This document shows, piece after piece, positions 19,706 to 38,407 of a stretch of DNA of 64,000 bases. The stretch lies in NCBI RefSeq assembly GCF_964194025.1, contig NC_134471.1, positions 60,512,001-60,576,000 on the forward strand, given 5' to 3'. The stretch's first letter is position 1; every line of letters starts with the position of its first letter. A program made the position numbers and the translations under genes. The notes below the pieces were generated by a model. The model was not told the origin of the DNA. It saw only the letters and a list, made by a program, of their open reading frames with translations, and searched no databases. The stretch comes from Convolutriloba macropyga. Taxonomy: Eukaryota.

Positions 19706-22234
19706 TCTGAAGTTTTCGAACTTGGGCATCTCTTATAGCTCATTCTCATGTCCTTTTTTGCTCCTCAAGGTTTCGTTTCTCTAGCCAAGTATATGTTGAA
19801 CAAGTATAGGTTTCTGTCAAGATTACCTTAAGCACAATGTGCATTAGATTGATTTCTCTCCTCTGAACCTTCTAACAACAACAGCCTGATACGGCATGAA
19901 CCAAAAACAGCTGGCGATTTGTTAAAAAATTACCCTGATGACCTCAATTGGAATTTGCTGTGTTCTCTGAAGTAAAAGAACGCAGTTTTTTTGTTTAAAA
20001 TGACATGACCAGTGGATATAAAAATGTTGGCTCAATCTGTTTTCGAGATATTCAAGTAGTTGGTATCTCAAACCATGCTTTTACTGGGTTTTTCGTTTAT
20101 CGACCTGAGCTGCATTGACTGAAGACTACAAGTTTGATGGCGTTCTAACTGCAGACGCCATGAGCAGAAGAATTGGGGGAAAAACTAAGCCTAGAGATGC
20201 CAAAATAATCACTCAAGTTGTTTGAAAAACCTCAAAATAAACAATTATTTGGTTCACAAAATAAAAAAAACATAGCAGGAAAGTCCTGAAATACAATTCA
20301 AAGAATTGAATGAAGAACTTAGAAGTACTCTACCTGACCAGCAGATCAATTGAACATGGCAGCCAAAAGACAAACAAAATCATCTCAAGAAATTAAGAAA
20401 CTAAAACAATCAAACAAACTAAACAAAAATATACTCATTACTAAAACTCTTGAAGCTCTTACCCCTTAGGCAAAATTTCATCCCTTTAAATATGCCTATT
20501 TCAAAAATATGCTCATGGCCACTTTTTGTTTTTGGAACTGGTCCAGTACTATGTCTGCATGGCCTGCAAAAATTCATTGGCCCTTGAAGATCGTTTAACT
20601 CAAAAATTACCAAAAATTTAAAAATTGAAATCAATTGAAAACTTTAATAAAATTTGGCTGAAAATCGTGATATTAATATCTTCAGAATCATTTCTGTGTC
20701 TCTAGAGGCTATCCATTAACCCAATTCTAAGCATTAAAAAAATCATTGGCTCAAAGATCGATAGGCAATAATTTTAAGAAAAAAATCTCAAATTTCAAAC
20801 AATAGAAATTCGTTCCATTAAAATGTTGAAAACTGTTCAATTGCGCCCTTGAACTATATAAAAACATACTGTCAAACCCAGGATAAAGTTAGCTGGCTCC
20901 TGAGGCAAGATGAAAAAAAATGAATAAAAGACAAATGTTCTGAAAAAACTTTAAAAAAATTGCAAATTTTATCAAAAACTTTCACAAAATTCGAAAGTTT
21001 AAATTGTTCAAAACAAATCCATTGCTAACAACCATGCAGTATCTCTTTATCAGACCGTGGAATAGGTTTTCTGGCACTTGAGCGGGAACAAATATCAAAA
21101 AATGACAAAAACTGTAGGAAACTTTGAAAAAATTGCAAATTTTATCAAAAAAATGCAAAATTTCAAGACATTAAAATGTTGGAAACCAATCCATTATTAC
21201 TAGATACTATGCTGTCGTCTTCTATAAAACCGCAAAGGACATTTCCTGGCCCCTGAAGCTGGAAAACTTAAAAAATGACGAAAATTTTTGAACAAACTTG
21301 AAAAAATAGCAAAAATTAGTATCATTTTGCGTGTTTGTATTTGTAGTACCAAAATACATAGCTCATAGACGCTCATAGCGATTTATATTGTCTTGCAAAA
21401 AGGCCTTAATCATTTTTCAAAATTTTCAACCCAAGAAATCAAACAAAAAACTCAAAAAAAAACACAGAAAACATGAAAAAATGTAATATTTTGAGCCCAA
21501 AAACTCCTAAAAATGACCTTTTAACCTTAAATTAAGGCCATCCCAGCAGCTGCACCACTATAAGCACTTGAAGGACTACTGAAGCCCACTTTGGGCCTCT
21601 AATGAAACTTAATGCCCGCTGGGCTTTACCTGTTTATCCCGTTTTAAAAGATCAAACTCATTGAAAAATATAATTTAAATTCTTTGAATTGTAAAAAACA
21701 TAGCAGGACAAGTTCTGAGCAACAATTCAAATAGTTTTTTTTATTCAAGAAACTAGACATCAAATGGACTATGAAAGGATTGGAGAATCCATTTTGAAAA
21801 AAAAATCAGAAAAAAAAATCAAAAAGTAGTAAAGATGCCGCATTTGAAGAACCAGTAGCCAGAAAGTGAATTTTTGTTCAAACACCGTTTTTTCATTCTT
21901 CGTCAAAATTAAAGCGGAAAAATGCGCGCCACAAAACCGCTCGTTTTTTCGCTACACTTCCTGTTTCGACATGACCAATATCATCAGTTCACTTTGACTT
22001 CAATTATGAAAATGTGTGAACAGATCTTTAACAGCGACCCAATGCAATTCAAAAATTGTTTGAATTGTAAAAAACTGCAGAAGTTCAAAATAACATTTTA
22101 TAGTGCACGGCCAAGAAGTGGGCGTCCGCTTGATACAGAAGTCAATTTGACATGATAAGTAAACATTTTTTGATACATTTTTGAGAAAGTGATAAATTTT
22201 TTGAGAAATTGATGGGCACAATTTTTCAAGCCTT

Positions 22235-23660
22235 AGTAGTAATAGTTAAGCAAGAGTGGGGGGGTAAAAAGACGTACCTATGTATAAAGATTACGTATAG
22301 CCCATATTCCCTCAAATCCCAAAGACGTACCTCACAGCATGATACCCAAGGTGTTCAAGCGAGGGGGATTAGAAAGTTAATCCCTTAATATTAAATTAGT
22401 AAGGTCATTCACTCATTCCCATATTGCACTTTATTAATGTAAATTTCCAAAGACGTACCTCACAGCATGACACCCAAGCTGTTCTCACGAAAGGGATTAG
22501 CAAGATAGTGCCTTAACAGCAAATCAGTAAGGTCATTGACCCCTACCATATTAGACTTTACTGATGTCAATTTCCAAAGACGTACCTCACAGCATGACAC
22601 CCAAGCTGTTCTCACGAAAGGGATTAGCAAGATAGTGCCTTAACAGCAAATTAGTAAGGTCATTCACTCATTCCCATATTGCACTTTTTTAATGTAAATT
22701 TCCAAAGACGTACCTCACAGCATGACACCCAAGCTGTTCTCACGAAAGGGATTAGCAAGATAGTGCCTTAACAGCAAATCAGTAAGGTCATTGACCCCCT
22801 ACCATATTAGACTTTACTGATGTCAATTTCCAAAGACGTACCTCACAGCATGATACCCAAGCTGTTCTCACGAAAGGGATTAGCAAGATAGTGCCTTAAC
22901 AGCAAATCAGTCAGGTCATTGACCCCCTACCATATTACACTTTACTAATGTCAATTTCCAAAGACGTACCTCACAGCATGACACCCAAGCTGTTCTCTCA
23001 AAGGGGATTAGTTAGGTAATGTTTTGATAATAAATTAGATAGGGTGACTCATTTACACTTACGTACGGTTTACTAGATTTCCAAAAAACGTACCTCACAG
23101 CTTGATACCCAAGCTGTTCACACGAAAGGGATTAGCAGGATAATGTTTTAATATTAAATTAGGTAGGATGACTCATTTACAGTTACGTACGTTAGACGTG
23201 ATTTTCAAAAATGTACCGCACAGCAAGATACCCAAGCTGTTCACACGAAAGGGATTAGCAAGATAATGTTTTAATATTAAAATAGATAGGATGACTCATT
23301 TACACTTATGTACAGCTTACGTGATTTTCAAAAATGTACCTCACAGTATGATACCCAAGCTCTTCACACTAAAGGGATTAGCAAGATAGTGTCTTAACAA
23401 CAAACTAATAAGGTCATTGACCCCCTAACATATTAGACTTTACTAATGTCAATTTCTAAAGACGTACCTCACAGCATGATACCCAAGCTTTTCACACGAA
23501 AGGGATTAGCAGAATAATGTTTTAATAATAAATTAGGTAGGATGACTCATTTACAGTTACGTACGACTTTTCAAAAATGCGCCTCACAGCATGATACCCA
23601 CGCTGTTCACACGAAAGGGATTAGCAAGATAATCCCTCAATAACAAACTAGTTTGGCTTG
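22235..23660 (+). repeat. Left TIR region: tandem array of 11 units of ~116-128 bp
   Basis: Core AAAGACGTACCTCACAGCATGAYACCCAAGCTGTTCWCACGAAAGGGATTAGCAAGATA starts at ~22321, 22449, 22576, 22704, 22832, 22960, 23084, 23208, 23331, 23458 and 23574. Confidence 0.95.
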
Positions 23661-23670
23661 CTCATATATT

Positions 23671-24295
23671 AGCCACTACTCCTATTCATTATTTCAAACA
23701 ACTTCTAGAAATCAGTTGGTTGAAATTTTAGTTTAATTTTTCTTTTTTCAGATAGTGTTTGTTTCTTTCTCCTTTCAGCAAGAAGAGTTTCAAGTTGAAC
23801 ATTTGCAGTGTTGAAGCGGGTAGGCAAACAAATTTAATAAATAGAAATTTTCCTTTGTTTCTGTATTTAAACTGGACCATTTTAGCCAGCCAAAATATCC
23901 CCAAATATTAGATATTGCAACACATCACTTCAATTCCAAAACCACAAAAAAACTGGTAAGTTTGCGTTTATTAAGCCGCTACTATTCCCAAGCCACTACT
24001 CCTATTCATTATTTCAAACAACTTCTAAAAATCGGTTGATCCAAATTCTAGTTTAGTTTATCCTTTTTTTTCAGATAGTCTTTGTTTCTTTCTCCTTGTT
24101 GCCAGTTTCAAGTTGAAGACTTGCAGTGTTGAAGCGGGTAGGCAAACAAATTTAATAAATAGGAATCTTCCTTTGTTCCTGTATTTAAACTGGATCATTT
24201 TAACCAGCCAAAACTTCCCCCTATAGTAGATATTGCAACTATTCACTTCACCTTTAAATCCAAAAAAGAAACTCGTAAGTTTGCTTTTATTAAAA
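23671..24295 (+). repeat. Diverged direct duplication of ~320 bp inside the Polinton
   Basis: Both copies start AGCCACTACTCCTATTCATTATTTCAAACAACTTCTA (23671, 23991) and end GTAAGTTTGC.TTTATTAA. Confidence 0.9.
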
Positions 24296-24361
24296 CCTGT
24301 TTTTGTGGTAGGAATATATACCCAATTATTGAATTAAAAAAACCATTAATAATCATAAAAT

Positions 24362-24475
24362 TCGCACGTGATTAGACAATTAGTCACTATTTTATAGTCA
24401 CAATTAATCATAACATCACAATTACATCATAGCTCGTCACAATTAGGTCATAGTGTTGTCATAATTACGTCATAT
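24362..24475 (+). promoter_or_regulatory. Putative pPolB promoter: phased ~20-bp motif array
   Basis: Five TCAYAATTA-N(1-2)-TCAY-like motifs plus CACGTG and TTACGTCA upstream of pPolB. Confidence 0.5.
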
Positions 24476-24657
24476 TTATTAAAGGACATTTCATTTCCGT
24501 TTTATTTTCATTTTTCTGATTTACAGAATTGAGTGCAGTTGAGAACAATAATCATTACAACTTTTGAAAAATATTTTATTCCATCGCAACTTACATTAAC
24601 ATTTTTTTCACTCCTCCTTTCTCACTCCTAATCTTACAGTTTATTTTCTTTCCAGAG

Positions 24658-27600
24658 ATGCCTCGGAAGTCGGACCAAAAAGAACTTTGCAATTCTTGTG
24701 ATAAGCTTATTTTGAAACCCAATATGAGCAGACATCAGAAGCTTCACGCAAAAAGATGTTTACAGTGCTTCCAGTCATTTCCAGACGACGAGAAACTGCA
24801 GCGTCACATTGCTTCTAAACATGCTCCATCTCTCACTCAAAAGAAGAAGTTTTCATGCGGCAGCTGCAATTCAACGTTCTCCACATATTATCAACTTCTT
24901 CATCACAAAAAAAACAGTCACCAACGTTCAATTCCTAGCACCTACGAGGAAGTTGACTTATCTGTCTATGGAGACTCTCCCGCTCTTCATAATGAACTTC
25001 AAACGGTTCAACACTTTCTGAGAGACTCGGTTCTTGAATTGTCCAGAAAGAAAGTTCACAACTTCAAAATAATGGAGATCAACCATGAAACAGTGATCGA
25101 AAAATTGGATTGTGTTTACAACGAGTTACCCAGTTCAGCTTAAATCAATATTTCGTTTGGATTCGTTCTGCAGAGTGTTCAAAATCCTGAAGAATTTCGC
25201 TACTACTACGCAGCAGATAACAACCCCGTATTCCTAAATCCCATGGTTCTCTCTGATGACTCAGATCTCAATTATATTAAATCAATGCTGAGACAAGATG
25301 AATTTTTTCCAAATCTAATTAATCAACGTCCAGACACAAAATGGAAGTTTTATTGTGTTACAAATGTCACTTTCTTTGTATTTCTCCTCAGTGGTGTTCC
25401 GCTAGGATGCATAGAACAATCAATTCCATCAACATTACTGAGGAATCCAATAGTTAAATGTTTTGTGTCTGACTGTGAAAAAAGACCTTATCAAGACAAT
25501 TTGTGTATGTTTCGTGCACTGGCCTATGAATTACATGGCAGCAATGAGCTACAACAAAATACAATGGAATTGATGCAGATGTTTCTCTCAGCGACAAGGA
25601 GAGATGACGAAACCTTCCCAGGAATACATGAAGACGATATTCCTGTTCTTGAGAATCTAGTTGACAGAAACATTCAAGTTTACTCAATATTTTTTGACGA
25701 ACAATCGGAAATGCTTGCTGAACTTACTCGTCGCTCCTCGATGAAACGTTCAAAGACAACTTCGTTACTGAGATACGAAAATCACATTTGTTGGACAGCA
25801 GACATCAACAAATTCCTCAAAAAGTTCCGGTGCTACGTATGCGATCACTTTTTCGATAGATCAAATAATTTGGAAGTCCACATGAGGAATTGCTCAGAGA
25901 GAACAAAACACCACTATCCCTCAGGTGTCTATCAAATATCAGAAACTATTTTCGAGCGCTTGGAATATGTAAATATTAATGTTCCGCAGGAGCTGAGATT
26001 GTTTTCTCATCTTATCGTATTCGATTTTGAGTCAATAACAGTCCCCGACAGTACACTCAAAAACACAGATTTGACTTCATGGATTGGAAAACATGTCCCC
26101 ATTAGTGTGTCAATATCCTCGAATCTAATCTCCGAGCCAATTTTTATTTGCAACGAAGATCCGCTTCAACTGATCCGTGATTTTGTGTACAGCTTGACTA
26201 ATATAGCAGAAAAAAGCACACTTCTAATGAAGGAAAAACTCAATAATTTCGTGTTGGAATTGGAAGAAAAATATTGGGCAGTACGACAATTGGTTCCAGT
26301 GAAAGACAAGCAGTTACCTACCGGAGCGGAAGACTTTTGGACAACGAGGCGGAACCTGACGGCGAGTAAGACGAAGACATTGAAATTCAGAGACTGAGAT
26401 GTGAGCTCAAGATGTTATCAAACTTGAGACAAGATTTTGAGAACTATTACAGCACCATTCCTGTGTTTGGGTTCAACAGTTCGAGGTACGATTTGAACTT
26501 AATCAAAGAGTATCTTCTGCATCACCTCTTAATAGAAAAAAACGTTATTCCTAGAGTGATTCGAATGGGGAATAAATATATTGGCATGAATTTTCTTGGT
26601 CTACAGTTTCTGGACATTTTAAACTTCCTGGGAGGAGCGACAACTCTGGATAACTTCCTAAAAGCCTATGGAGCAAGTGAAGAAAAAGGTTTCTTCCCCT
26701 ATGAATGGTTCGACAGTATTGAGAAGTTGAATGAATCCCAACTGCCACAAATCGACAGCTTTTGGAGTAAGTTGAAGAACCACAACGTTTTGTCGGTCGA
26801 GTACGATAAGTTTGTGCAATTGAAAAACGGTGGAATGGAGCAGGATGAAATTTTGAAGAAGTTGAGACTCAAGAAAGTTCCACAAAATGCCGAAGAAAAT
26901 TACTTGGAGCTCCAAAATATATGGGAAAGAAAAGGTATGCAGACGTTTCGTGACTTCCTCATGTGGTACAATAACAAAGATGTCGAACCTACACTTGAGG
27001 CTATGAAGAAAATGATCAGTTTTTACCACTCAAGACAAGTAGACATGTTGAAGTTGGGCTACACTCTTCCCAACTTGGCAAACAGGTTCCTTCATTCGTC
27101 AACAGATGCAGCTTTTTTTCCGTTTTGTGAGAAGGATAAAGAATATGATAATTACATTCGAAAGTGGCTAACAGGGGGACCCTCAATTATCTTTACAAGG
27201 TATGCGAAAGTTGGTGAAACAAAAATTCGAGAGTCAGAAAACGTTTGCAAGTCCATCGTCGGAATAGATGCCAGTCAGTTGTACCCTTTTTCCATGACAA
27301 AAGAGATGCCAACAGGACCCTATACAAAGTGGGAGTACAATGAAGAGACTGAAAAATTTCATCCGAACAGGAACTGGAGAAGCTACTTTGAACAGCAGGT
27401 CATGGACTACCTCCAACAGGTTCACCCCAATTGTAAAATACAAACCCAGTTCACACACAAGAAACAAAAGAAGCTCGGTCCTTATTTAGTTGATGGGTTT
27501 TGTAACCATTGCAACACGGTTTTTGAAGCGATGGGTTGTTTCTTTCATTTTTGTCCGTGTCAAGAGGAAAAACCACTTCTCTTCGAGGACATAGAAAGCC

Positions 27601-28985
27601 GATTGAAGCGAAGAGAACGTGACAATGACAGAAGAGAGTACCTGAAGGGATTGGGGTTGAATGTTGAAGAGATCTGGGAGTGTCAATGGAAGAAGTGGAG
27701 GAGCGAAAACACAAATGGGGTTAAAGACTTTCTCAAGTCAAATTATCCCTTCCAACCATCGATGAACAAAAACTCGCTCATTGAGAAAATTAAACGTGGA
27801 GAACTGTTTGGTGTCGTCGATTGTAGTCTTGAGGTTCCAGAGGAAATGTATCCGTACTTTGAAGACTTTCCTCCAATTTTCAAGAATTGTGAAGTTGGAC
27901 GAGATGATATTGGGGACCATATGAAAGAGTTTGCAGAACGCAACAAATTACTACCCAGACCCAGAAAAATGCTCATTTCCAGTTTCAAGCTTGAACGAGG
28001 ACCAGTTATTACACCACTTTTGTTATTTTATCTAGAAAAAGGTGTGATCCTAAAAGACGTCTTTTGGTTTCTCCAATACACTCCCCGGCGCTGCTTTGAG
28101 ACATTTGTTCAGAATGTTGTCGATGCCCGCCGCGAAGGAGACCAGAATAAGGAGTCAACAGTCGTTGCGGAGACAATGAAGCTGATTGGGAACAGTTCGT
28201 ATGGATATCAGATCATGGATCGTAGTCGACATACGAACACCAAGTACGTGAAAGGCTCACAGGTGGACAAATTTATTAACAATAGATTTTTCAAGACTAT
28301 GAATGAGCTACTAGAGCAGATATATGAGGTAGAAATGAGCAAGACACGCATCGAGCATAAGGAACCAATAATCGTAGGATTCTTCATCCTCCAGTACGCC
28401 AAACTCACCATGTTACAACTTAAATACAACTTCTTCTCCCCTTTCTGTGATAAGAACAAGTACGAACTCATTGAAATGGATACCGACAGTCTCTACATGG
28501 CCCTTAGTGAGGAAAAAATTGATGAAATCATTCGACCGGAAATGCGATCAGTGTGGTACTGGATGAGACAGAGCGACTGCAATGATAACTTTGCAGCAAA
28601 CTCCAGCAGCAATTTCTTCCCACGAGAATGTTGCAAAAAACATGCTGCCTTTGACAAGAGAACTCCTGGACTTTTTAAGGAAGAATTTAGATGCTCTGAG
28701 ATGATTGCTCTGTGTTCAAAGACGTACTGCTGTTACGATGAGGAAACAGACACAGTTAAACTATCAAGTAAAGGACTCAACAAGAAAAACATTGAGGAGC
28801 CCCTAAACAAGTACAGAAAAGTTCTGTTCGATGAGGAGCGAGTTTATTCAACAAATCGTGGCTTCAGAGTTGTTGACAACAAGAAAGTTTGTACCTATGA
28901 ACTAAAGAAAGTGGGACTGTCATATTTTTATCCCAAGCGTAAAGTCTGTGAAGATGGTATTCACACTACTCCTTTAGATTTATAA
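24658..28985 (+). pseudogene. Protein-primed family B DNA polymerase (pPolB) polyprotein, disrupted
   Basis: Three N-terminal C2H2 fingers, vOTU-like C/H motifs, exonuclease motifs (VFDFES, GFNSSRYD, YNNKDV) and polymerase motifs (DASQLYP, KLIGNSSYG, MDTDS, KTYC, SSKG). Lesions: in-frame TAA at 25141, 1-nt frameshift at the T-run 26335-26338, and TAA at 26367. Confidence 0.95.
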
Positions 28986-29214
28986 CTCGTTTTCTTTAGT
29001 CTTGTATTTATATCGCCTCTTTTTTAATTCACAGTTTTCCTACCAAAATCTCTTTTCAACAAAATACCTTTTTTTGAAATAAGTGAATTAGATACAAATA
29101 CACATACAAATAATAAAATACAAAATTACAAAACCTCAATAGAAAGTTTTGAAAACCATTTGCAACATTTTACGGATTACTGTTTAAAAATTTCAAGATT
29201 TTGGTTTTCAAAAC

Positions 29215-29610
29215 TTACAAAACATCAGCAAAGAACTTCAATATATGAAAATCATTTAAATATTTAGATGAGACTTTGGAAAATAACACATGGGCAAAAT
29301 AAATAGCATATAAACCACACAATTCTGAATCTTGGAGTTTCTCCTGTACTAATGAACCAAAGTTTGCTTTTGTCCTGATGCCATATTTTTCCAAAACTTC
29401 TCCCATCGAATCACCGTAGAACAACTTTCCATTCTTATTCGCAAGCAAAATCCAGTGGGAGCCCGGTTGAGTAGATGGATCTATGTTGATTATACAAAAC
29501 GTGTTTGTAGGTAAATTTTTTGGTCGAAGATCTGCAGGGAAGGAACCGAGGTATTTGAACTTTAGGTGTGGGAACCTGTTGACAACATGTAAGAGTTGTT
29601 GATTATCCAT
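29215..29610 (-). CDS. Adenain-like cysteine maturation protease
   Basis: IINIDPSTQPGSHW (His), FYGDSMG (Asp), KLQDSELCGLY (Gln/Cys). The likely start MDNQQ at 29610 overlaps the capsid stop. Confidence 0.92.
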   Translation of the reverse strand: MDNQQLLHVVNRFPHLKFKYLGSFPADLRPKNLPTNTFCIINIDPSTQPGSHWILLANKNGKLFYGDSMGEVLEKYGIRTKANFGSLVQEKLQDSELCGLYAIYFAHVLFSKVSSKYLNDFHILKFFADVL

Positions 29611-30841
29611 TTTTGGTGACTGATCCCTCCTTATCAATTGCAATTGAACTTATACGTTCACCACTAACAAATAATTCTACAGTATTGGTCAAATTGTTAG
29701 CAAAGTAGAGCTCTAAACGAATTCCTGCTCCAACTACATCAGGAAAATGCATTTCGACATTGGCCTCCTGTGTTGAAGTAAGATCGAAAAATAAATGAAA
29801 ATGGTTTTCAAAATCCTTGTATTGAATGTTAGGACCGTCATCATCAAACTTGAGTGCTTTCATTGTTTCAGCATAAGCTCTCACGTGATTTTCTGTTTTC
29901 AAGTTGACTATAGTTTGATTCCCACGCACAATTTTAACTTGCCGAAGGCCAAATTTACGAAAATGGAACGGATTCGTGTTGTATGTTCCACTGAACTCAT
30001 TATTCAGATTCATAGCAATATCAATCATTCGAATTGGTTTGTTTGAAAATATATTTTCTTGTATAAACTGGTTCTGTCCTGCGGGAATAATAAACGTCTT
30101 TGGAAGTTCTTCATTATAGTAAAATATGGCAGGTTCTCGAAGCAGTCTGCTTTTGAAACTTCTCATCCAGTTATCTGAGATTGCTACCTGTCTAGTAAAA
30201 AGGCAAGCTTCCAAAATTAAGGCCTCAGAGTTCAGCCCACCAGTATCGATCATATAGAACGCTGGAGAAGACCGGATCAACTTCAGTCTGAGGTTGACAT
30301 TTGGGAGAAGTAAAGTTTCACAAGCAAATAGACCTATTGCCAACGGACCGTAAAAAGTAAACTCATCTTTATCTTTTTGAAAAACAACATCTGTAAACGG
30401 TCTTTTATTAAAATCGTTTGGCTCAATCTCGTATCGATATCCTTGACATTGAGACAAGCTTTCCTTCGTTCCTTTTGTACCTGAAAACTCAGCAGAAACA
30501 AAAGCTTGATGAGCATAAAGAGAATTGGCACTGTGAACTTGTTCATTGTTTAGATAGACTTCGCAATTAGAAAAAAGTGAATGAAGAGCATTGTTTACCA
30601 ATAATGTTTCTTCGGCATTATCCAAACGTGTTCGATCGCCTTTAATAACCCTTCCTCTGATGAATAATCGACTAGATCGCAAGTCAGTGAAAATATTACG
30701 ATCAGTTTCCAATTGAAATTCGATTGTTGACTCGTTTAAGGAATTTGTTGGAAATATTTGTTGTTCATTGGACCAAAGAATTGGGTCTAAAATTGGAACT
30801 TTCCCAAAAAAGTCGAGCATAGAGTGAGATAAGGAATTCAT
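29603..30841 (-). CDS. Major capsid protein (double jelly-roll, hexon-like), ~412 aa
   Basis: IFPTNSLNESTIEF, FTDLRSSRL, NNALHSLFSNCEVYLNNEQV, LLPNVNLRLKLIR, NPFHF and FFDLT are typical Polinton MCP motifs. ATG at 30841. Confidence 0.9.
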   Translation of the reverse strand: MNSLSHSMLDFFGKVPILDPILWSNEQQIFPTNSLNESTIEFQLETDRNIFTDLRSSRLFIRGRVIKGDRTRLDNAEETLLVNNALHSLFSNCEVYLNNEQVHSANSLYAHQAFVSAEFSGTKGTKESLSQCQGYRYEIEPNDFNKRPFTDVVFQKDKDEFTFYGPLAIGLFACETLLLPNVNLRLKLIRSSPAFYMIDTGGLNSEALILEACLFTRQVAISDNWMRSFKSRLLREPAIFYYNEELPKTFIIPAGQNQFIQENIFSNKPIRMIDIAMNLNNEFSGTYNTNPFHFRKFGLRQVKIVRGNQTIVNLKTENHVRAYAETMKALKFDDDGPNIQYKDFENHFHLFFDLTSTQEANVEMHFPDVVGAGIRLELYFANNLTNTVELFVSGERISSIAIDKEGSVTKNG

Positions 30842-30881
30842 TTTAGCCGACCGTTTTTTATAATGATAATCGAGGAAATGA

Positions 30882-31679
30882 TCAAGATTTTTTCTGGAAT
30901 AATAAAGTAAGTTGAACTTGACCAATAGGGAAGAAGGGAACAAGGTGTCCAGCAGCGTTTCTTAATTCTACATGGATACTGTGGAAGTTCGATTTGATTA
31001 CTTTATGGAATCTCAAGTGTTCGAAACTGCGATAACTCAGAACTTGCGATCTCTTAATCTCATCATTATGGAAATCTCGGTGTTTGAATGGAAAGGAGCG
31101 TAGAAGAGGACATTTCACATCACCGACTGAATTGGGTTCAACTATATCCAAGTAGAGTAAAACTGTATGTGTTCCAGTAATATCAAAAGGGAGATCTGCC
31201 GTTGCCCAGGACTTGGTGTTGTATGATCTTTTCGAATAAGGCATAACAGGTTTGTCAGCTTCAACGCCCAAGTTAGCAGCCAAACTTTTGCTGAATGATA
31301 CATTTTGAGATTCTCTATTGCAAAAAGTTAGTCTTCGACTTTTTTTGTCGATATTGATGGAAAATTGAGGATCTAAGTTTTTGGGATGTCGTGCTTTTTT
31401 GGGAATATCTGTAAGACTCTTTACAAATTCATCCATAGAGTTAAAAACTGCTGGTGGAATGTTGAAGACATGCTTAAATTTCTCATCATAGTGAAAGGTC
31501 ATCAATCCTCCTTCAACGTTATAACATATACCGGGATATGATACTTCGACTAAAGCTACTTCCCAAGATCCATTTAGTTCAATTTTGTCGGGAAGAAAAT
31601 TAGTGAATGAAGCCATTGTATTTTGAGGATAAACTTGAGAGGAAGCGTTGGATACTAATTCAAGATAAAACGAATTCAT
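30882..31679 (-). CDS. Minor capsid protein (penton)
   Basis: FYLELVSNAS...YPQNTMASFTNFLP...LNGSWEVALVEVSYP N-terminus; YLDIVEPNSVGDVKCPLLR...LTLLF C-terminus. Confidence 0.9.
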   Translation of the reverse strand: MNSFYLELVSNASSQVYPQNTMASFTNFLPDKIELNGSWEVALVEVSYPGICYNVEGGLMTFHYDEKFKHVFNIPPAVFNSMDEFVKSLTDIPKKARHPKNLDPQFSINIDKKSRRLTFCNRESQNVSFSKSLAANLGVEADKPVMPYSKRSYNTKSWATADLPFDITGTHTVLLYLDIVEPNSVGDVKCPLLRSFPFKHRDFHNDEIKRSQVLSYRSFEHLRFHKVIKSNFHSIHVELRNAAGHLVPFFPIGQVQLTLLFQKKS

Positions 31680-31720
31680 GATGTTTGACTGTACTCTGTG
31701 ACGTTTGTTTGGGAAAATGA

Positions 31721-32059
31721 TTAGTCAAGGTTCTTTAGAAAGTCTTTCCGAATTTTTTGCCGAACGAAACTTTGTCTCGTGTTTTTCCTCTTTTTCATAC
31801 CACCACCAACTTGTTTTCGTATTGTTGATTTCGCAGTCTTCTTTACTGCTCTTTTAATTGAAGTCTGTCCTGATAAAACATCTCCAATTTCGGGAATGGC
31901 TGACTCGATTACATCTCGTCCAATTTTTTTTGCTGCAGGTAAAACGTATTTCTTGAGAATTGGGAGAGTTGTTCTAGCGACTGTTCTAGCCAAGGCTCCA
32001 AAGCCACGCCCTCTCTGACGAGGAACTCCTTTAAAATAAGGCAGATTGTAACCGTCCAT
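31721..32059 (-). CDS. Small basic/amphipathic virion protein (core or membrane-penetration candidate)
   Basis: QRGRGFG and QVGGG glycine motifs resembling adenain sites, amphipathic helices and a K/R-rich tail. Lies beside the penton. Confidence 0.7.
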   Translation of the reverse strand: MDGYNLPYFKGVPRQRGRGFGALARTVARTTLPILKKYVLPAAKKIGRDVIESAIPEIGDVLSGQTSIKRAVKKTAKSTIRKQVGGGMKKRKNTRQSFVRQKIRKDFLKNLD

Positions 32060-32086
32060 TTTCTAGCGCGACTAATTGAAAAATGA

Positions 32087-33031
32087 TTATTTAACTTTTG
32101 ACAATTCTTGCTCGTAAAAGATTCCATCAATGTTTTCTCCTTTCTGATCAACAACAAAGTAAGTCGGGAAAGGAGCCAAAGTGTTTATTTTTCGAATTAG
32201 AAAAATTTCATGTGTATAGTGAGGCTTATATCCTTTTTGAAAATTGTGCCCTACTAATACCAACCGAACTTTATCACCTACTTTAAAATTAGGCTTTTTG
32301 TTTTTTCGTAGTTTCATCCGCTTGTACAAGACAGTCAAAAAGTCAGCATTTACTACATTTTTGGGAGCCAAACCAATACTTCGATTTATTCTAGAGTTGA
32401 TGATGTCAACAAACATTTGCAGGTCTTTGATGTAAGATAATGTGTCCTTTTCCTCCAGGTAGCGGTAAATTAAGTTTTTCAGGGTTCGTATAGCTCTCTC
32501 GCCAAAAGCTACTTTTGTTTCACTATAAGTGTGATAATATTTGACTCCCACATCCTCGCAGAAATTGGCCATATCTCCGAAAAACTCTTTTCCTTGATCT
32601 AGCCATAATTTTTTCGGGAAATTGAGTTCGTTCTTTTTCGAACACATTTTGATAAAAGCTGCTTTCACACCCTCTGCTCTTTTGCTTCGTAATGCTTCTA
32701 CTCGCAAGAATCGAGAAAAAACATCGACAGTAACGAGTAAAAAGTTGATACCTCGGTTCCATTGTGATAGTTTATCCATTTGTGCAAGATCCAAACACCA
32801 AATCTCATCAATATAGCGAGCATGCGCATTTAGCCGGGGAAATTTTCTTCTGATCCCTTTGTACTTCGTATAAGAGTCTTTTGATTGTAAAAAATCTGTA
32901 ACTTTCTCGCGACTTATTCCACTTGATTTTGTTAGGTTGTTGATAGAACCGAAAGCTGTTGGTCCCTTCCCTTTATACAACTTCTGCAATTTGATTCTAT
33001 CTGAAACTGTAATTGAACCAGTCTGAGCCAT
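32087..33031 (-). CDS. Retroviral-like (rve) DDE integrase
   Basis: WCLDL (D), VDVFSRF, LWLDQGKEF (D), GERAIRTLK (E); FKVGDKVR and FYEQEL in the C-terminal part. Confidence 0.95.
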   Translation of the reverse strand: MAQTGSITVSDRIKLQKLYKGKGPTAFGSINNLTKSSGISREKVTDFLQSKDSYTKYKGIRRKFPRLNAHARYIDEIWCLDLAQMDKLSQWNRGINFLLVTVDVFSRFLRVEALRSKRAEGVKAAFIKMCSKKNELNFPKKLWLDQGKEFFGDMANFCEDVGVKYYHTYSETKVAFGERAIRTLKNLIYRYLEEKDTLSYIKDLQMFVDIINSRINRSIGLAPKNVVNADFLTVLYKRMKLRKNKKPNFKVGDKVRLVLVGHNFQKGYKPHYTHEIFLIRKINTLAPFPTYFVVDQKGENIDGIFYEQELSKVK

Positions 33032-33467
33032 ACTGTGTCCTCAAAATGTTGTTTTTAGCCAGATATGGTCTCAGATTTAGAACTTTAAGAATTAGGAAAT
33101 AGTTTGGATCAACTGGAGCGTTTTCCAATTTGATTGAATGAAGGAATGTTTTTATATCAACTCCAGTGTCAACGTTGTCAACAATAATTGTATTGGAAAG
33201 TGAAACTTTCAACCGTTTGTTTTCGTAAATTTCCTTCAAAGTTTTCAATGTCTCGGGACTGTTCTTATAGTGAAATTCCAGATCTGTCTTAAGTTCTTTA
33301 GGTGGACGATCGGTTTTTTCGGAACTAATTTCTTCTTTCGCTTTTTTGATAACTGGAAAAACAGTTTCTTCCTTTTTATAGATCTCGCAGGAGGGTTCCG
33401 GTAATTTCCCTTTTCTGGACTCCCACAGTTCTTTTGGAACAAGAACAAACTTTTTGACCTCACTCAT
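32997..33467 (-). CDS. Polinton hypothetical protein, 156 aa
   Basis: ATG-initiated ORF overlapping both neighbours; KKFVLVP N-terminus. Confidence 0.75.
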   Translation of the reverse strand: MSEVKKFVLVPKELWESRKGKLPEPSCEIYKKEETVFPVIKKAKEEISSEKTDRPPKELKTDLEFHYKNSPETLKTLKEIYENKRLKVSLSNTIIVDNVDTGVDIKTFLHSIKLENAPVDPNYFLILKVLNLRPYLAKNNILRTQYGSDWFNYSFR

Positions 33468-33780
33468 TGAAGAAAGTTGAAAATTTGTTCATACAAGGTT
33501 GATATATGTAACCTAGTATTGTTATTCCAGCCTTCGAGCCCAATATAAGTCTTCTGGAATTGAGGGTTGTTGATTTTGACGTGAGCTTTCTAAGTTGTTT
33601 TTGGAAGCGAACAAACTGATTTTTTCTTACTCCTGTGAGGTTTCCTTCAATCAAGTTTACAATACACTCACAGAGAAATCTGATGAACTCTTTAGGACAA
33701 TTTAGAAGGAAAGCTGGTTGAAATTTCTTGCTGAGATTCCGAAAGAGCTTCAGAGTATAATAGTTCTGTGCGTTTATCAT
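33460..33780 (-). CDS. Conserved Polinton small basic protein
   Basis: LCECIVNLIEGNL...KQLRKL motif resembles the small ORF that commonly follows Polinton ATPases. Start codon uncertain (first ATG ~33780). Confidence 0.7.
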   Translation of the reverse strand: MINAQNYYTLKLFRNLSKKFQPAFLLNCPKEFIRFLCECIVNLIEGNLTGVRKNQFVRFQKQLRKLTSKSTTLNSRRLILGSKAGITILGYIYQPCMNKFSTFFNE

Positions 33781-34432
33781 TAATATCAGTAATACGAGCA
33801 CGACTGTTCGGTACGAAGAAATCTGAGGGAAATGATGTTACATTTGAACAGTATCTCAACAAATCAGGTGTAGATGGTCTCAAATCAATCATAAGATGAC
33901 CATACGGTTCTTGTGTTGCATCATCATACCACTGTTTTAGTTGTCTTCCGAGACCTAGCTGTCTTCCCAAGATATCAATCTGCTGCACATCTCTCGGTGA
34001 TTTGAACAAAACAATGTGAGTAGTCTGCAGCTCGGCATCACGTCCAGTTTTGTTTTTGTGGAAGAGATTATGCTTGATATATACACAATTTAGGTTTCGA
34101 TGTCTACCGGCTGTCGCAATTCCGTTGAACTTTTCCGACTTGGAAAGAATGTCCAATGAATCATCGAATAAAAGTAAATATTTAGTGCCGTCAGCGGGTA
34201 AGTTATCGATTAAATCAAAGTCAACTCCCTGAATGAATTCTATGTCTGCAATTGATTGCATCATTGTGTCGTAAATTGGCTGAAAGTGCTTATAAAAGTA
34301 TAAAATTCGATCAAATGATGGCTGAAAAGTTTTCATTCGTAGCATATCATTGATAAAAACAGTTTTTCCAGATCCGGAAGGACCAACAAGATACATCAAA
34401 GTTCGTTCGTTTGTTGAAATGATTTTGTTCAT
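33692..34432 (-). CDS. FtsK/HerA-family (A32-like) genome packaging ATPase
   Basis: Walker A GPSGSGKT, Walker B LLLFDD, GRH arginine finger, HIVLFKSPRD, PYGHLMIDL. ATG at 34432. Confidence 0.95.
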   Translation of the reverse strand: MNKIISTNERTLMYLVGPSGSGKTVFINDMLRMKTFQPSFDRILYFYKHFQPIYDTMMQSIADIEFIQGVDFDLIDNLPADGTKYLLLFDDSLDILSKSEKFNGIATAGRHRNLNCVYIKHNLFHKNKTGRDAELQTTHIVLFKSPRDVQQIDILGRQLGLGRQLKQWYDDATQEPYGHLMIDLRPSTPDLLRYCSNVTSFPSDFFVPNSRARITDINDKRTELLYSEALSESQQEISTSFPSKLS

Positions 34433-34433
34433 T

Positions 34434-34688
34434 TTATGTTCGGGGATTAGGAAGTATATAACCAACGGCACTTGAAAGAATAGCAATCCAAACTGTCCGT
34501 TCGTCACAAGTTCTAGCAAAAATAAGATTAATAATTGAAAACAGAAGCAGTACTAATACAACTAAGCACTGAAATATTGACAAAAAAGCTGTTCGAGAGC
34601 AAGTGCGACCACAGATTTTCCAAGGAGGTCTTTCCTGATTGTTATTATCAAAAATAAAGTCAGATGCGTGATTGAGATGATCTGTCAT
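34434..34688 (-). CDS. Small two-helix membrane protein, 84 aa
   Basis: Hydrophobic stretches AFLSIFQCLVVLVLLLFSIINLIFA and VWIAILSSAVGYILPNP. Its stop abuts the ATPase ATG. Confidence 0.8.
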   Translation of the reverse strand: MTDHLNHASDFIFDNNNQERPPWKICGRTCSRTAFLSIFQCLVVLVLLLFSIINLIFARTCDERTVWIAILSSAVGYILPNPRT

Positions 34689-34730
34689 TAGAGAGCAACT
34701 GATTTTTGTTCGTCTTTAGGAAATAATGAT

Positions 34731-35225
34731 TCACACTTTGATTAATTGGAATCGTGATGACATTTTCAAAAAACAACAATATGCAAGACCTGTTATATGT
34801 CCCAAGAAACAAAAATTCAATATAGAATTAAAAAATGGAACAACGTAACAATATCCAGGGCCAATATTTAGATTTGTTTTCAGGTAGCCTGCGGCATCAT
34901 GAAATGTAGCATGTAATCGAAAAATTTTTGAGCAATTGAGAAGTTTTTCTAACTTTGAGTCACCAACTCCTATTAGTCCCCCAAACGGAGTTTCTCTGTT
35001 GATTTTATCCAGATATACATTTTTGTTCAAGCTTCGACAGACAGCCAAAAAATAATTTTTGCGTTTTGTATTTCCAACAAAAAGTTTACTGATTTCTTTC
35101 TCTAACGCTACAATTTCCTCAATGTTCATATCAAGCAACTGTACTGGAACATTAAATTTTAAAAAGTGATTAAAAACAAACATCACAACATACAATATTA
35201 AAAATTTACAATTACTGTTATGCAC
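34731..35225 (-). CDS. Polinton hypothetical protein (start uncertain)
   Basis: Open frame co-oriented within the cassette; no motif recognised. Confidence 0.55.
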   Translation of the reverse strand: MHNSNCKFLILYVVMFVFNHFLKFNVPVQLLDMNIEEIVALEKEISKLFVGNTKRKNYFLAVCRSLNKNVYLDKINRETPFGGLIGVGDSKLEKLLNCSKIFRLHATFHDAAGYLKTNLNIGPGYCYVVPFFNSILNFCFLGHITGLAYCCFLKMSSRFQLIKV

Positions 35226-35967
35226 TTTGCGATCTTTTTTGATTTTTGACTTTGTTCAGCACTGAAATAATTTCATCACTCATTCTGTGTAGTTTCTCCA
35301 TCTCACCAATTCTGACCGAAAGAAAGCATTTCCTTCTGAAAATGTCCTTTTCACTCCCTCGTGTGAACAGCTTGATTGTGAAGTAACATCGATTCGGGTC
35401 ATCTTGGAAAAATATTCTAGTTACACACACCTTCCGTCGAGCAGTCTCACTCACCTCCCAGAACACATCAAATTTTGCTTTTTCCTCAACATCAGTTGGT
35501 TGGAACACAGTTTCGTCAATCACCAGCTTCGCAGTACCTACAGTAGGTTCGAACAGTAGTGCTTCTTTTATCATCTCAGGTATCTTTTCAATAACAAGCT
35601 TCAATTCTCTGGCCGATAGCATCAGAAATTGATGCAGAACATATTCACTTTCCACATTTTTGCGAAATACTTTCAAGTGAGTCCAGTTAGAGTTTGAGTT
35701 GACGGTTTCCTCTGGGATGCTGATTTGAAAATTCCGGTTCCCGTATTCTTGAAAGGACCAACAGTTGTTTCTTCCATCGTGCTCCTCATTTGGTTTTGAG
35801 TCGGTGTTGTCTTTTTTATCGTTGTTGTCTTTAAATAGAGAAAACATGCTCTCATTGTGGTATTCCAATTGTGGTGAGGGAACAACTGGTTTTCCTTTGT
35901 AATCTCGTTTACGGAGGGGAAAGGAGAATGGTTTTTTGGAGTTAGGAGAGACAGAGCTTTGATCCAT
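35218..35967 (-). CDS. Hypothetical protein, 249 aa, with two putative PC4-like ssDNA-binding repeats
   Basis: Two similar strand-strand-helix blocks: HLKVFRK..FLMLSARELKLVIEKIPEMI and TIKLFTR..FLSVRIGEMEKLHRMSDEII. A splice acceptor directly precedes the ATG. Confidence 0.7.
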   Translation of the reverse strand: MDQSSVSPNSKKPFSFPLRKRDYKGKPVVPSPQLEYHNESMFSLFKDNNDKKDNTDSKPNEEHDGRNNCWSFQEYGNRNFQISIPEETVNSNSNWTHLKVFRKNVESEYVLHQFLMLSARELKLVIEKIPEMIKEALLFEPTVGTAKLVIDETVFQPTDVEEKAKFDVFWEVSETARRKVCVTRIFFQDDPNRCYFTIKLFTRGSEKDIFRRKCFLSVRIGEMEKLHRMSDEIISVLNKVKNQKRSQSA

Positions 35968-36094
35968 CTGTGAAATGAGAATGTGAAGTATGTAAAGTTT
36001 TTAAAGCAGAAAATTTGGGTCTACAAGGGTAACTGAATATTGAAATCGCAAAGAAACAAATGAATAAATTGTCTTCAAGAAAGGGGTTGATATC

Positions 36095-36290
36095 TTGAAC
36101 CAATGAAATTTAAGTAAGAACGAGAACAGTAGCGAAAAATAAACTTCGTATCCAATGAGATGTTATAAAATAATTCGTAACCAATGAAAATAGAGCGTGC
36201 ATCATGACGTAATAGTTATGTCACTTCTATTTTTAGTAACATCACGTGATGCCAAAGATGAGTTTTCTATATTTAGTCACGTGAGGGTGA
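36095..36290. promoter_or_regulatory. Putative promoter between the 193-aa and 249-aa ORFs
   Basis: Three CCAATGA boxes (~36100, 36152, 36181), TGACGTAA and two TCACGTGA E-boxes within 200 bp. Confidence 0.5.
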
Positions 36291-36321
36291 ATTTAGCATC
36301 GAACAAAAGCGAGTTATCTCA

Positions 36322-36903
36322 CTATTCTATTGGAGAACACTTATAGTTCGAGAAAGGAATATTTTGATGAGATGATTGAGTCTCTTCATTGTCAGTTTCC
36401 TGGATCGGAGGAAGAATAAGGTCTTTGAAATCGGGCAGATTGAAGGCTTCTGGTTTTTTAGAAAATGAGTCAGCATGCTTGGAGAACATGTCTTCTACCC
36501 ACCAAACACCGTAGTGATTTATGTCACGAGAGTACGGGAACATAATTCCTTTGCTGTCTTTCAACGGGTGAAACCCTTGTTCTTTTCGAATTCTTTCAAT
36601 GATTTGAAAATAAGTTTGGAGAGAAAGCAATGAATTGTTGACTTTTTTTTCGGCTAGGTGGAGGTTATGATGTCTAGCTGCCTCTAAAGTTCTCCACAAA
36701 TCCTTCGGAAGTGTCAAGCTAGTTGTCTGAGTTTTAATTGTTACTCTAGTGCAATCCACCTCAAAAGATAATTCCAAATTGTTATCGGTTACTACCGTTT
36801 TAAATATTGATGCTTCCGTGATAGGAGCGTAATCTAAATCTGAATGAAAAGTAGAAAGAAAAGATGTTGAAGGAAGTAAAGGAAGAATTGGAGTATTTTG
36901 CAT
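36322..36903 (-). CDS. Hypothetical protein, 193 aa, possible PC4-like segment
   Basis: ATG ORF nearest the right TIR; RVTIKTQTTSLTLPKDLWRTL resembles the PC4 ISLxxxxWxxL motif. Confidence 0.65.
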   Translation of the reverse strand: MQNTPILPLLPSTSFLSTFHSDLDYAPITEASIFKTVVTDNNLELSFEVDCTRVTIKTQTTSLTLPKDLWRTLEAARHHNLHLAEKKVNNSLLSLQTYFQIIERIRKEQGFHPLKDSKGIMFPYSRDINHYGVWWVEDMFSKHADSFSKKPEAFNLPDFKDLILPPIQETDNEETQSSHQNIPFSNYKCSPIE

Positions 36904-37179: not shown

Positions 37180-37861
37180 GTTAATATGGGAATGGGTGGG
37201 TAAATGACCTTATTAGTTTGTTGTTAAGACACTATCTTGCTAATCCCTTTAGTGTGAAGAGCTTGGGTATCATACTGTGAGGTACATTTTTGAAAATCAC
37301 GTAAGCTGTACATAAGTGTAAATGAGTCATCCTATCTATTTTAATATTAAAACATTACCTAGCTAATCCCCCTTTGTGTGAACAGCTTGGTGTCATGCTG
37401 TGAGGTACATTTTTGAAAAGTCGTACGTAACTGTAAATGAGTCATCCTAATTTATTATTAAAGGATTATCTTGCTAATCCCTTTCGTGTGAACAGCTTGA
37501 GTATCATGCTGTGAGGTACATCTTTGGAAATCACGTAAACCGTACGTAGTGTAAATGAGTCACCCTATCTAATTTAATATTAAAACATTACCTAACTAAT
37601 CCCCTTTGAGAGAACAGCTTGGGTGTCATACTGTGAGGTACGTCTTTGAAAATATACATTATTAAAGTGCAATTTGGGAATGAGTAAATGAACTAATTTA
37701 ATATTAAGGGATTAACTTGCTAATCCCCCTCGTGTGAACAGCTTGGGTATCATGCTGTGAGGTACTTCCTTGGAATTTGAGCGAAAATGGGCTATACCTA
37801 ATCTTAATACATAGGTACTTCCTTTTACCCCCCCCCCCACTCTTGCTTAACTATTACTACT
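37180..37861 (-). repeat. Right TIR region: 5 inverted copies of the same unit
   Basis: Reverse-complement core (GCTAATCCC...CTGTGAGGTAC) occurs five times between ~37235 and ~37770. Confidence 0.95.
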
Positions 37862-38407
37862 AGCCTTACTGGACTTAAGCCAGCTGAAAAATTGAGCAGA
37901 AAGTTGAAAGTAGTTTTCAAAAGCAGTCAGTCTTAGAGAAACTGTTCATATTATTTAAAAATTTGCTGAAAACAGTGCAGCAATGTGAGCAATTGTTGTT
38001 GATTGATTATAAAATGAAAATTTGTCCATTCCATAATGCTAAAATGGAAAAATTGGAGCAATTTGAAAATTGCCAAAATGAGTTAGCTTTGAAGTTTTTT
38101 TAGTTTTTGGTTATTTAAGTTTCCAACTAACAAAGTATTTTACTAGTCCCAAAAAACATTAGCAAAATTATGCACGCCGCTTAAAACGAAAACTAAGAAT
38201 ATTGGCGAAACCCAATAAATGGCGTCAAACAGTGTGCACGAAATTTTTGCATCAAAACTTCACCTCGGCAACTTATATAGTAGCCTGGTCCATTTTGGTT
38301 AAAAGTGGGCCTTACATAAAATTCTCGCATTTTGTCTCTTAATTGAGATTTGAAATAGATCTCATTTTAACATCGATTTTTTTGTTTCGGGAAGTAATTT
38401 GGACGCG

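What the first reader, a model, noticed from the sequence alone, without database searches (positions are those of the whole stretch)
22321..23660. Polinton termini are repeat-spacer arrays: constant ~58-bp core, a few spacer classes, 11 versus 5 units
Seen: a conserved core alternates with ~60-70-bp linkers of about three classes (GGTCATTGACCCCTACCATATTAGAC, GGTCATTCACTCATTCCCATATTGCAC, GATGACTCATTTACAGTTACGTAC). Left units 2-5 are a near-identical expansion absent on the right. The third class carries TGACTCA (AP-1) at ~23045, 23169, 23292 and 23543, and inverted at ~37323, 37438 and 37556. Inference: an iteron/enhancer-like array (analogous to baculovirus hr regions or adenovirus packaging repeats) that expands and shuffles by recombination, perhaps bound by the pPolB zinc fingers or the PC4-like proteins.
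Basis: partly seen in the sequence, partly recalled or inferred. Interest (0 to 1): 0.7.

Follow-up and report, generated by a model that had tools for sequence, protein, structure and literature searches.

The report
Shuffled switch arrays at Maverick ends
Both ends of a virus-like jumping element (Polinton/Maverick) in an animal genome carry a tandem array of 111-128-base units, 4 to 50 or more per end in scrambled order among sibling copies, and because a close sister group spread without it, the array is likely an optional enhancer built from host transcription-factor sites rather than an essential origin.

Summary
In detail: 11 left and 5 right units, with AP-1-type words exactly where stated, inside a 15.6-kb Polinton with AGTAGT ends and a 6-bp target duplication. 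It is not a CRISPR-like repeat-spacer array. The linkers are two old, homologous cassette types, and the C cassette is as conserved within its type as the core. The array is family-wide: 4 to at least 50 units at 55 ends, 1,191 exact core hits. Linkage breaks inside the core, which points to exchange there. The two ends of an element usually mirror each other; this element is an exception with mismatched ends, and its right array recurs at other insertions. A sister subfamily (ATPase 93% identical, 100 ends) lacks the array, so it is not an essential iteron or packaging signal. Best reading: an optional host-factor enhancer array (homeodomain word in every core, nuclear-receptor or AP-1 words in the cassettes); function untested. 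The scan noted similar motif-rich Maverick ends in two other genomes. New variant of a known kind.

The parts
22229..22234 (+). Left copy of the 6-bp target-site duplication AGCCTT
22235..22318 (+). Left lead of the TIR: AGTAGT end, G run, the 12-bp word that also opens each unit (22268), and the 22-bp motif
22280..22301 (+).
22319..23660 (+). Left array, 11 units (types B A B A A C C C A c, then a truncated unit); GGATTA in 11 of 11 cores
22447..22957 (+). Units 2-5, locally homogenised block (0.89-0.98 identity)
22530..22542 (+). Nuclear-receptor IR1-type palindrome (AGGTCA-n-TGACCC) in unit 2; also at 22785, 22913, 23411; none in the right array
   Evidence: IR1 definition from PMC11843329 passages
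23045..23051 (+). TGACTCA (AP-1-type word, label recalled) in C cassettes; also 23169, 23292, 23543, and inverted 37323, 37438, 37556
24658..28985 (+). Polymerase region in three ORFs (161, 384, 857 aa), broken near 25143 and 26397; N-terminal C2H2 fingers; reads inward from the left array
   Evidence: family-B polymerase motifs recognised by eye (recalled), no Pfam polymerase hit
29215..34432 (-). Morphogenesis and integration block: protease-like ORF, putative capsid ORFs (by size and position, untested), rve integrase 32087-33031, A32-type ATPase 33692-34432; reads inward from the right array
35218..35967 (-). 249-aa ORF with a predicted tandem PUR/PC4/Whirly fold, likely a single-strand-binding protein
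37190..37773 (-). Right array, 5 units (B C c C, then a truncated A/B unit); 99.3% identical over 591 bp to the array of an independent insertion (L057)
37791..37812 (-). 22-bp subterminal motif, right allele, identical to the commonest copy in the diverged families
37774..37861 (-). Right lead of the TIR; 0.87 identical to the left lead over the 52 bp compared
37862..37867 (+). Right copy of the target-site duplication AGCCTT

Best explanation
The array is a variable-number tandem repeat inside the terminal inverted repeats of one Polinton subfamily, and it likely works as an optional enhancer made of host transcription-factor sites that would drive the two inward-reading gene blocks. Shown: each unit is a conserved core plus one of two old cassettes; the core carries GGATTA, the A/B cassette AGGTCA (a full IR1 palindrome in a minority), the C cassette TGACTCA and TTACGTA; number and order differ among siblings; the two ends of an element mostly match; a sister subfamily lacks the array. 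Inferred: cassettes are exchanged by crossover or template switching inside the core (positions 9-40); the ends are re-homogenised by copying one end on the other during protein-primed, strand-displacement replication; this copy integrated with, or later acquired, ends of two lineages. Untested: binding by homeodomain, NR1H/RXR and bZIP factors, and any effect on transcription.
For: Family-wide and confined to element ends where looked at: 1,191 exact core matches, 0 for the reversed control; the first 100 listed are mostly inward-facing clusters. 55 terminal arrays hold 4-50 units, median 9. Polymorphic sites 1, 6, 8 track the upstream cassette (r2 0.36-0.44), several sites from 43 to 79 track the downstream one (up to 0.87), sites 25-39 track neither (at most 0.05), successive cassettes r2 0.015, in 374 distinct neighbour pairs. 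219 of 366 units have their closest outside copy at the partner end, 8.3 expected; the partner is the most similar of 54 arrays for 23 of 34 ends. Motifs: GGATTA in 403 of 472 distinct units, AGGTCA in 191 of 274 A/B, TGACTCA in 135 of 154 C; 54 of 55 arrays have AGGTCA, 51 of 55 the AP-1 word. TGACTCA and AGGTCA are among the best-kept linker windows of their class (3 of 50 and 3 of 58 other windows as good). IR1 arises in 1 of 20,000 shuffles of unit 4. The host genome encodes an FXR/EcR-like (NR1H) DNA-binding domain. Both gene blocks start just inside the arrays. Other families carry different subterminal modules at the same place, with AGGTCA or GGTCAT in families B, C, E and F.
Against: No expression, chromatin or binding data. 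Six- and seven-base words are common: GGATTA or AGGTCA alone appear in 5-7% of shuffled units, the motifs were picked after looking, and all units descend from few ancestors, so counts are not independent. The perfect IR1 is in only 60 of 274 A/B units and 35 of 55 arrays, is absent from this element's right end, and its second half is not better kept than neighbours (36 of 58 windows as good). GGATTA is not the best-kept part of the core (8 of 34 windows as good). The cassette mix per array is what random drawing gives (51 of 55 mixed, 51.3 expected), so no selection for both types is seen. The decay of mirror identity inward (14 of 17 pairs at unit 1, 5 of 16 at unit 4) follows from any slip in register, not only from end-to-end copying. 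Several sibling pairs are degraded mirror-type derivatives; among the 7 pairs with one polymerase-side and one capsid-side end at 90% identity or more, the partner ranks first for 6 of 14 ends and in the top 4 for 12 of 14.
Confidence: 0.5

Rival explanations
1. A neutral or selfish minisatellite: a subterminal segment was duplicated, is turned over by slippage and exchange during replication, and the core is uniform only because exchanges happen there; the motifs are incidental.
For: Dispensable in a sister subfamily with 100 ends; random cassette mix; more than tenfold range in unit number; IR1 not fixed; poxvirus ITR repeats vary in the same way with function unknown (PMC10101126 passages).
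Against: AP-1 and AGGTCA words sit in the best-kept windows of their cassettes; the C cassette is as uniform as the core although linked blocks show it is not the exchange zone; diverged families put other motif-rich modules at the same place.
Confidence: 0.27
2. Auxiliary binding sites for an element-encoded protein (integrase, terminal protein-polymerase zinc fingers or packaging ATPase), as proposed for transposon subterminal repeats: each unit repeats the 12-bp word found in the lead.
For: The word AAARAYGTACC occurs in the lead and opens 10 of 11 left and 4 of 5 right units, and never in the interior or flanks; it is kept twice in the lead of the array-less sister; ACAGC-N11-GCTGT is a dyad in 306 of 472 units, with ACAGC the best-kept core window; secondary transposase sites are proposed for Galileo TIR repeats (PMC3573991 passages).
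Against: The sister subfamily spread without core or dyad, with the same finger helices; three positions of the word vary and follow the upstream cassette; the PC4-like protein has a fold known for single-strand binding and is kept in array-less elements.
Confidence: 0.15
3. The left expansion (units 2-5) is an assembly artefact.
For: Units 2 and 4 are 0.98 identical; the best sibling match to units 2-5 is only 89.6%; no long read was available.
Against: The four units differ from one another; arrays of this size and larger are common in siblings; the right array recurs at 99.3% and 98.8% at other insertions; the left junction is bridged by a contig in three of four runs of one study, two samples, possibly the source individual.
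Confidence: 0.05
4. Each unit is a structured RNA, or the array is a CRISPR-like memory of acquired spacers.
For: The core can fold a short hairpin and unit 2 folds at z -2.9.
Against: No change on both sides of any hairpin or pseudoknot pair among the six commonest letter pairs per position in 472 units; the core alone folds at z -0.8, a B unit at -0.2 and a C unit at -1.7; no Rfam match near a family threshold; linkers are few, homologous and reused.
Confidence: 0.03

Closest known systems
Polinton/Maverick elements of animals (PMC8097293 passages; PMC10748475 passages)
   Same: (AGT)2 ends, 6-bp target duplication, 15.6 kb, integrase, packaging ATPase, two gene modules; TIR length is known to vary widely (46-1,447 bp in vertebrates).
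   Different: The passages read give TIR lengths and end motifs only; they do not describe an internal array of shuffled cassettes, its mirroring between ends, or a subterminal motif shared between families.
Tandem repeats in poxvirus inverted terminal repeats (vaccinia 54/70-bp repeats, monkeypox 16-mer; PMC10101126 passages; Baroudy and Moss 1982 seen only as a title in its reference list)
   Same: Non-coding tandem units of related sequence inside the inverted ends of a linear DNA virus, variable in number, attributed to unequal crossing over.
   Different: No sequence relation tested or expected; poxvirus ends are hairpins; here units are core-plus-cassette mosaics with host-factor-like words in an integrating element.
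Galileo/Foldback transposon TIRs with internal tandem repeats (PMC3573991 abstract and passages)
   Same: Repeats inside the TIR present in one subfamily and not others, different counts at the two ends, chimeric copies with ends of two subfamilies.
   Different: Galileo is a cut-and-paste element with 0-3 repeats proposed as transposase sites, and its chimeras lack matching target duplications; this element has a perfect duplication despite mismatched ends, and up to 50 or more units.
Baculovirus homologous regions (PMC4535591 abstract)
   Same: Repeated conserved units with an imperfect palindrome; activity there scales with unit number, the model for the enhancer reading.
   Different: hrs are spread round a circular genome and also act as origins; this array is terminal, is absent from a sister subfamily, and has no tested activity.
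Adenovirus ITR origin and packaging sequence (PMC9863843 passage; host-factor sites and panhandle copying recalled)
   Same: Protein-primed linear genome whose inverted ends hold the origin; the 22-bp motif 45 bp from the end sits where auxiliary host-factor sites would.
   Different: Adenovirus ITRs are about 100 bp with a packaging sequence at one end only; here the arrays are at both ends and dispensable.

Membership tests
Polinton/Maverick | (AGT)2 termini and inverted ends | tested here: met
Polinton/Maverick | 6-bp target-site duplication | tested here: met
   AGCCTT on both sides; exact in 15 of 20 end pairs examined
Polinton/Maverick | rve integrase and A32-type packaging ATPase | tested here: met
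   PF00665 E 5.8e-9 and PF04665 E 5.9e-8, both over cut-off
Polinton/Maverick | Protein-primed family-B polymerase | tested here: inconclusive
   No Pfam polymerase hit; motifs recognised by eye in the 857-aa ORF (recalled); gene in three ORFs
Polinton/Maverick | Protease and jelly-roll capsid proteins | tested here: inconclusive
   PF02902 E 0.003, under cut-off; the 412-aa ORF has 150 unnamed homologues; capsid fold not modelled
CRISPR-like repeat-spacer array | Unique, unrelated spacers between constant repeats | tested here: not met
   428 of 472 distinct tails fall in three clusters (A/B, long C, short C); linkers align above shuffles
CRISPR-like repeat-spacer array | Known repeat family or cas gene nearby | tested here: not met
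   Rfam hits far below threshold; no cas family among the 16 ORFs scanned
Iteron origin or packaging repeat | Required in every replicating member | tested here: not met
   4 of 4 sister-type ends read have no array; 100 ends of that type; matching target duplications
Iteron origin or packaging repeat | Bound by an element-encoded initiator or packaging protein | not testable with these tools
   Needs EMSA or ChIP
Baculovirus hr-like enhancer | Repeated unit with an imperfect palindrome | tested here: met
   ACAGC-N11-GCTGT in 306 of 472 units
Baculovirus hr-like enhancer | Dispersed at several sites of the genome | tested here: not met
   Only at the two ends in this element; second internal arrays occur in some degraded derivatives
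Baculovirus hr-like enhancer | Enhancer and origin activity | not testable with these tools
   Needs reporter and replication assays
Structured non-coding RNA | Compensatory base changes | tested here: not met

The most novel reading that the evidence does not exclude
Polintons of this host carry an exchangeable regulatory cassette system in their ends: the conserved core is a recombination joint that lets nuclear-receptor (IR1) and AP-1/bZIP modules be mixed and their dose tuned, the new mix is copied to both ends at replication, and the element thereby times its reactivation to host hormone-like and stress signals, while the 22-bp motif shared across families is the first candidate auxiliary origin element of Polintons.
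Probability: 0.2. Interest if true: 0.8.

Novelty: new variant of a known kind. Interest (0 to 1): 0.5.

Why it matters
The papers read here describe Polinton ends only by length and end motif; I found nothing on what switches these elements on or what their cis-acting signals are. This genome offers a natural experiment: sister subfamilies with and without the array, 4 to 50 or more units, two cassette types, and a 22-bp motif shared by families about 40% diverged. That gives short, defined sequences for reporter and binding assays. The matching of the two ends is also indirect sequence evidence on how the ends are copied. If the enhancer reading fails, the array is an ordinary subterminal minisatellite of the poxvirus or Galileo kind.

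Tried and rejected
Rfam scan of 22200-24700: nothing near threshold. RNA folding and covariation: no support. A relation between the 22-bp motif and the array unit: not significant (70-982 of 1,000 shuffles as good). Selection for mixed arrays: not seen. Relatives outside this genome: none in viral contigs by capsid-like protein or 22-bp pattern; one 21-base core hit in metagenome contigs is an isolated match in 61% GC DNA, taken as chance. Sequencing runs: no RNA holder listed, so expression is untested. Small ORFs between internal arrays of derivatives: no Pfam family over cut-off in 6 of 6. The single-sequence fold of the 249-aa ORF was useless (pLDDT 41); the alignment-based one was used. 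The protein atlas was unavailable. Kapitonov and Jurka 2006 and Baroudy and Moss 1982 are not held, and Repbase entries could not be searched, so an earlier mention of repeats in Polinton TIRs may have been missed. No supplements were read; TIR figures in the supplement of PMC8097293 could bear on novelty.

Full report
1. Observation. The element spans 22235-37861, begins and ends with AGTAGT, and is flanked by AGCCTT on both sides. It encodes an rve integrase and an A32-type ATPase over Pfam cut-off, a weak protease match, and a polymerase region in three ORFs with C2H2 fingers. The two gene blocks read inward from the two ends. Left units 2, 4 and 5 are 0.95-0.98 identical, unit 3 is 0.89-0.91.

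2. The array belongs to a family. A DNA search gave 237 matches from 40 of 948 candidates scored; an exact 24-base core pattern has 1,191 matches and 0 for the reversed control. I examined 58 ends (56 fetched, 2 from the window). Three were set aside because the first core lay over 700 bp inside, behind an insertion in at least two. The other 55 hold 4-50 units, median 9; the 50-unit array runs off the fetched stretch, and my rule ends an array at a 260-bp gap. Of 622 units, 557 were kept (last unit of each array, odd lengths and N dropped), 472 distinct.

3. Anatomy of the unit. Mean pairwise identity is 0.87 for positions 9-54, 0.67 for 55-80 and 0.51 for the tail. Tails cluster into A/B (274), long C (111), short C (43) and 44 minor ones. 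A and B align closely (z 9.7-16). A/B and C linkers align at z about 5, their last 45 bp only at z 1.5-2.3. Within the long C class the linker is as uniform as the core (0.918 versus 0.928); within A/B it is less so (0.853 versus 0.929). These are two old cassette alleles of one tandem repeat, not acquired spacers.

4. How it turns over. In 374 distinct neighbour pairs, sites 1, 6 and 8 are tied to the upstream cassette (r2 0.36-0.44), several sites from 43 to 79 to the downstream one (up to 0.87), sites 25-39 to neither (0.05 or less), and successive cassettes are almost independent (0.015). The inherited block therefore runs from about position 43 to position 8 of the next unit, and exchanges fall in the core. 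This is inference from linkage; units are related, so r2 values are descriptive. The core's uniformity may be partly a result of this exchange.

5. The two ends. Of 20 end pairs, 15 have an exact 6-bp duplication; 17 have arrays at both ends by my rule. 219 of 366 units find their closest outside copy at the partner end (8.3 expected by unit share), and the partner is the most similar of 54 arrays for 23 of 34 ends. Only 3 of 17 pairs have equal counts. Unit-by-unit identity of 0.9 or more falls from 14 of 17 at unit 1 to 5 of 16 at unit 4. Several pairs are degraded mirror-type derivatives; in the 7 pairs with a polymerase-side and a capsid-side end at 90% or more, the partner is first for 6 of 14 ends and in the top 4 for 12 of 14. 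End-to-end copying through a panhandle, recalled from adenovirus (a reference title seen), would explain this; intra-element conversion, as argued for Galileo, would too. The window element is an exception: 0 of 14 units are closest at the other end, partner ranks 13 and 9, although an inner 173-bp stretch is 98% complementary. Its right array is 99.3% and 98.8% identical to those of L057 and L084, while its left side is closest to L031, L036 and L037. It is a mosaic, so 11 versus 5 is not only a local expansion.

6. The array is optional. L142/L143 and L148/L149 share the lead with this element but have no array, and have matching target duplications; the L148/L149 TIR is 227 bp at 97.8%. Their junction pattern has 100 matches; I read 4 of these ends. 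The ATPase inside L148/L149 is 93% identical with no stop, its zinc-finger helices match those of array-bearing copies, and it keeps the 249-aa ORF at 76%. That ORF models as a tandem PUR/PC4/Whirly fold (mean pLDDT 66, best match PURA repeats I-II, E 8e-5), a fold known for single-strand binding (recalled); it is also in three families without this array. An essential iteron or packaging role for the core, or array-specific reading by these proteins, is thus unlikely.

7. The 22-bp motif at 22280-22301 and 37812-37791 is itself the repeat unit of 26-29-bp arrays in families whose ATPase is 57-61% or polymerase 54-57% identical: 41, 15 and 14 copies in L125, L126, L129; 3-34 in L132, L138-L141, L153; 7 and 4 in L144/L145. 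A degenerate pattern has 5,497 matches, control 0. It is absent from three other groups (L117/L154, L122/L123, L134/L135) and from L152, so it is not universal, and recent exchange of ends could explain the sharing as well as selection. It is unrelated to the array unit. Family B has its own 101-bp terminal array. Subterminal arrays are therefore a recurring, replaceable feature of Polintons in this genome.

8. Function. Every left and right core of this element has GGATTA (K50-homeodomain label recalled). A/B cassettes carry AGGTCA (191 of 274), and 60 carry a full IR1 palindrome, whose halves match the FXR/RXR IR1 consensus and the PLTP element given in PMC11843329. C cassettes carry TGACTCA (135 of 154) and TTACGTA (102 of 154) (bZIP labels recalled). 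IR1 appears in 1 of 20,000 shuffles of unit 4; the three C-unit words together in 1 of 20,000 of unit 7; single words in 1.5-7.5%. The host has an NR1H-type DNA-binding domain (best hits FXR E 1.6e-19, ecdysone receptor 6.7e-19) and an RXR-like one by eye. An earlier AI note calls the host an acoel worm (unchecked). Against: motifs were chosen after looking, IR1 is not fixed and is absent at the right end, its second half is not conserved, and the cassette mix is random. I put the enhancer reading at 0.5, a neutral minisatellite at 0.27, auxiliary sites for an element protein at 0.15, artefact 0.05, RNA or CRISPR-like 0.03.

9. Literature. Six searches on Polinton or adintovirus ends (listings only) showed no title or abstract start on repeat arrays in Polinton TIRs. 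Passages of PMC8097293, PMC10748475, PMC11414722, PMC8363768, PMC8502044 and PMC11161782 gave TIR lengths and end motifs but no such array; PMC11414722 mentions putative transcription-factor sites in repeats derived from a nematode Polinton TIR. The founding Polinton paper and Repbase were not available. Variable tandem repeats in inverted ends are known from poxviruses and Galileo, and dose-dependent enhancer repeats from baculoviruses (abstract). This scan has noted motif-dense Maverick-type ends in two other genomes (unchecked AI notes, not independent evidence).

10. Verdict. Real, family-wide, not CRISPR-like and not essential; a new variant of subterminal repeat arrays with a clear shuffling signature and a plausible but untested enhancer role. 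Interest 0.5.

Noticed in passing
L132:5139-5212, L132:8728-8801, L133:2531-2604, L125:2597-2668: ARAGORN finds a tRNA-Met gene directly inside the 26-29-bp terminal arrays of two diverged Polinton families; the same sequence is visible after the array in L139 and L144. Polintons here may carry their own tRNA-Met next to the shared 22-bp motif.
   Followed up: partly
window 23671-24293: A 318-bp tandem duplication (85%) lies between the left array and the polymerase start; it is shared with siblings at 90-97%.
   Followed up: partly
window 24360-24480: Short TCACAATT repeats, one CACGTG, TAATTA and ACGTCA just upstream of the polymerase start; a possible proximal promoter.
   Followed up: no
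L043, L047, L061, L042 (about 4.5-5.7 kb inside); L052, L081, L046, L067 (about 2.4-2.8 kb inside): Degraded derivatives carry a second, internal array, in the first group preceded by a lead-like copy with the 22-bp motif; small ORFs of no known family lie between the arrays.
   Followed up: partly
L053, L049, L055: Lead-derived segments are copied into the array as extra unit types, alternating with short C units nine times in a row in L053.
   Followed up: no
L055 (G000:C10:28911970-28918334): Five termini repeated head to tail at about 1,587 bp, the four read with the same flank: a tandem amplification of an element end with host DNA.
   Followed up: no
   Followed up: partly
L066 and L077, about 1.7 kb inside the first unit: The same insertion with tRNA-like stretches interrupts the first left unit in two independent insertions (97.8% identical), while the right ends lack it; ARAGORN finds no tRNA gene.
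   Followed up: partly
G000, genome-wide: Polintons are abundant and diverse: 151 ATPase matches from 150 of 5,947 candidates scored, 57-100% identity, and 215 further ends of the AGTAGTA-N-GAGCAGAT type against 7 control hits.
   Followed up: partly
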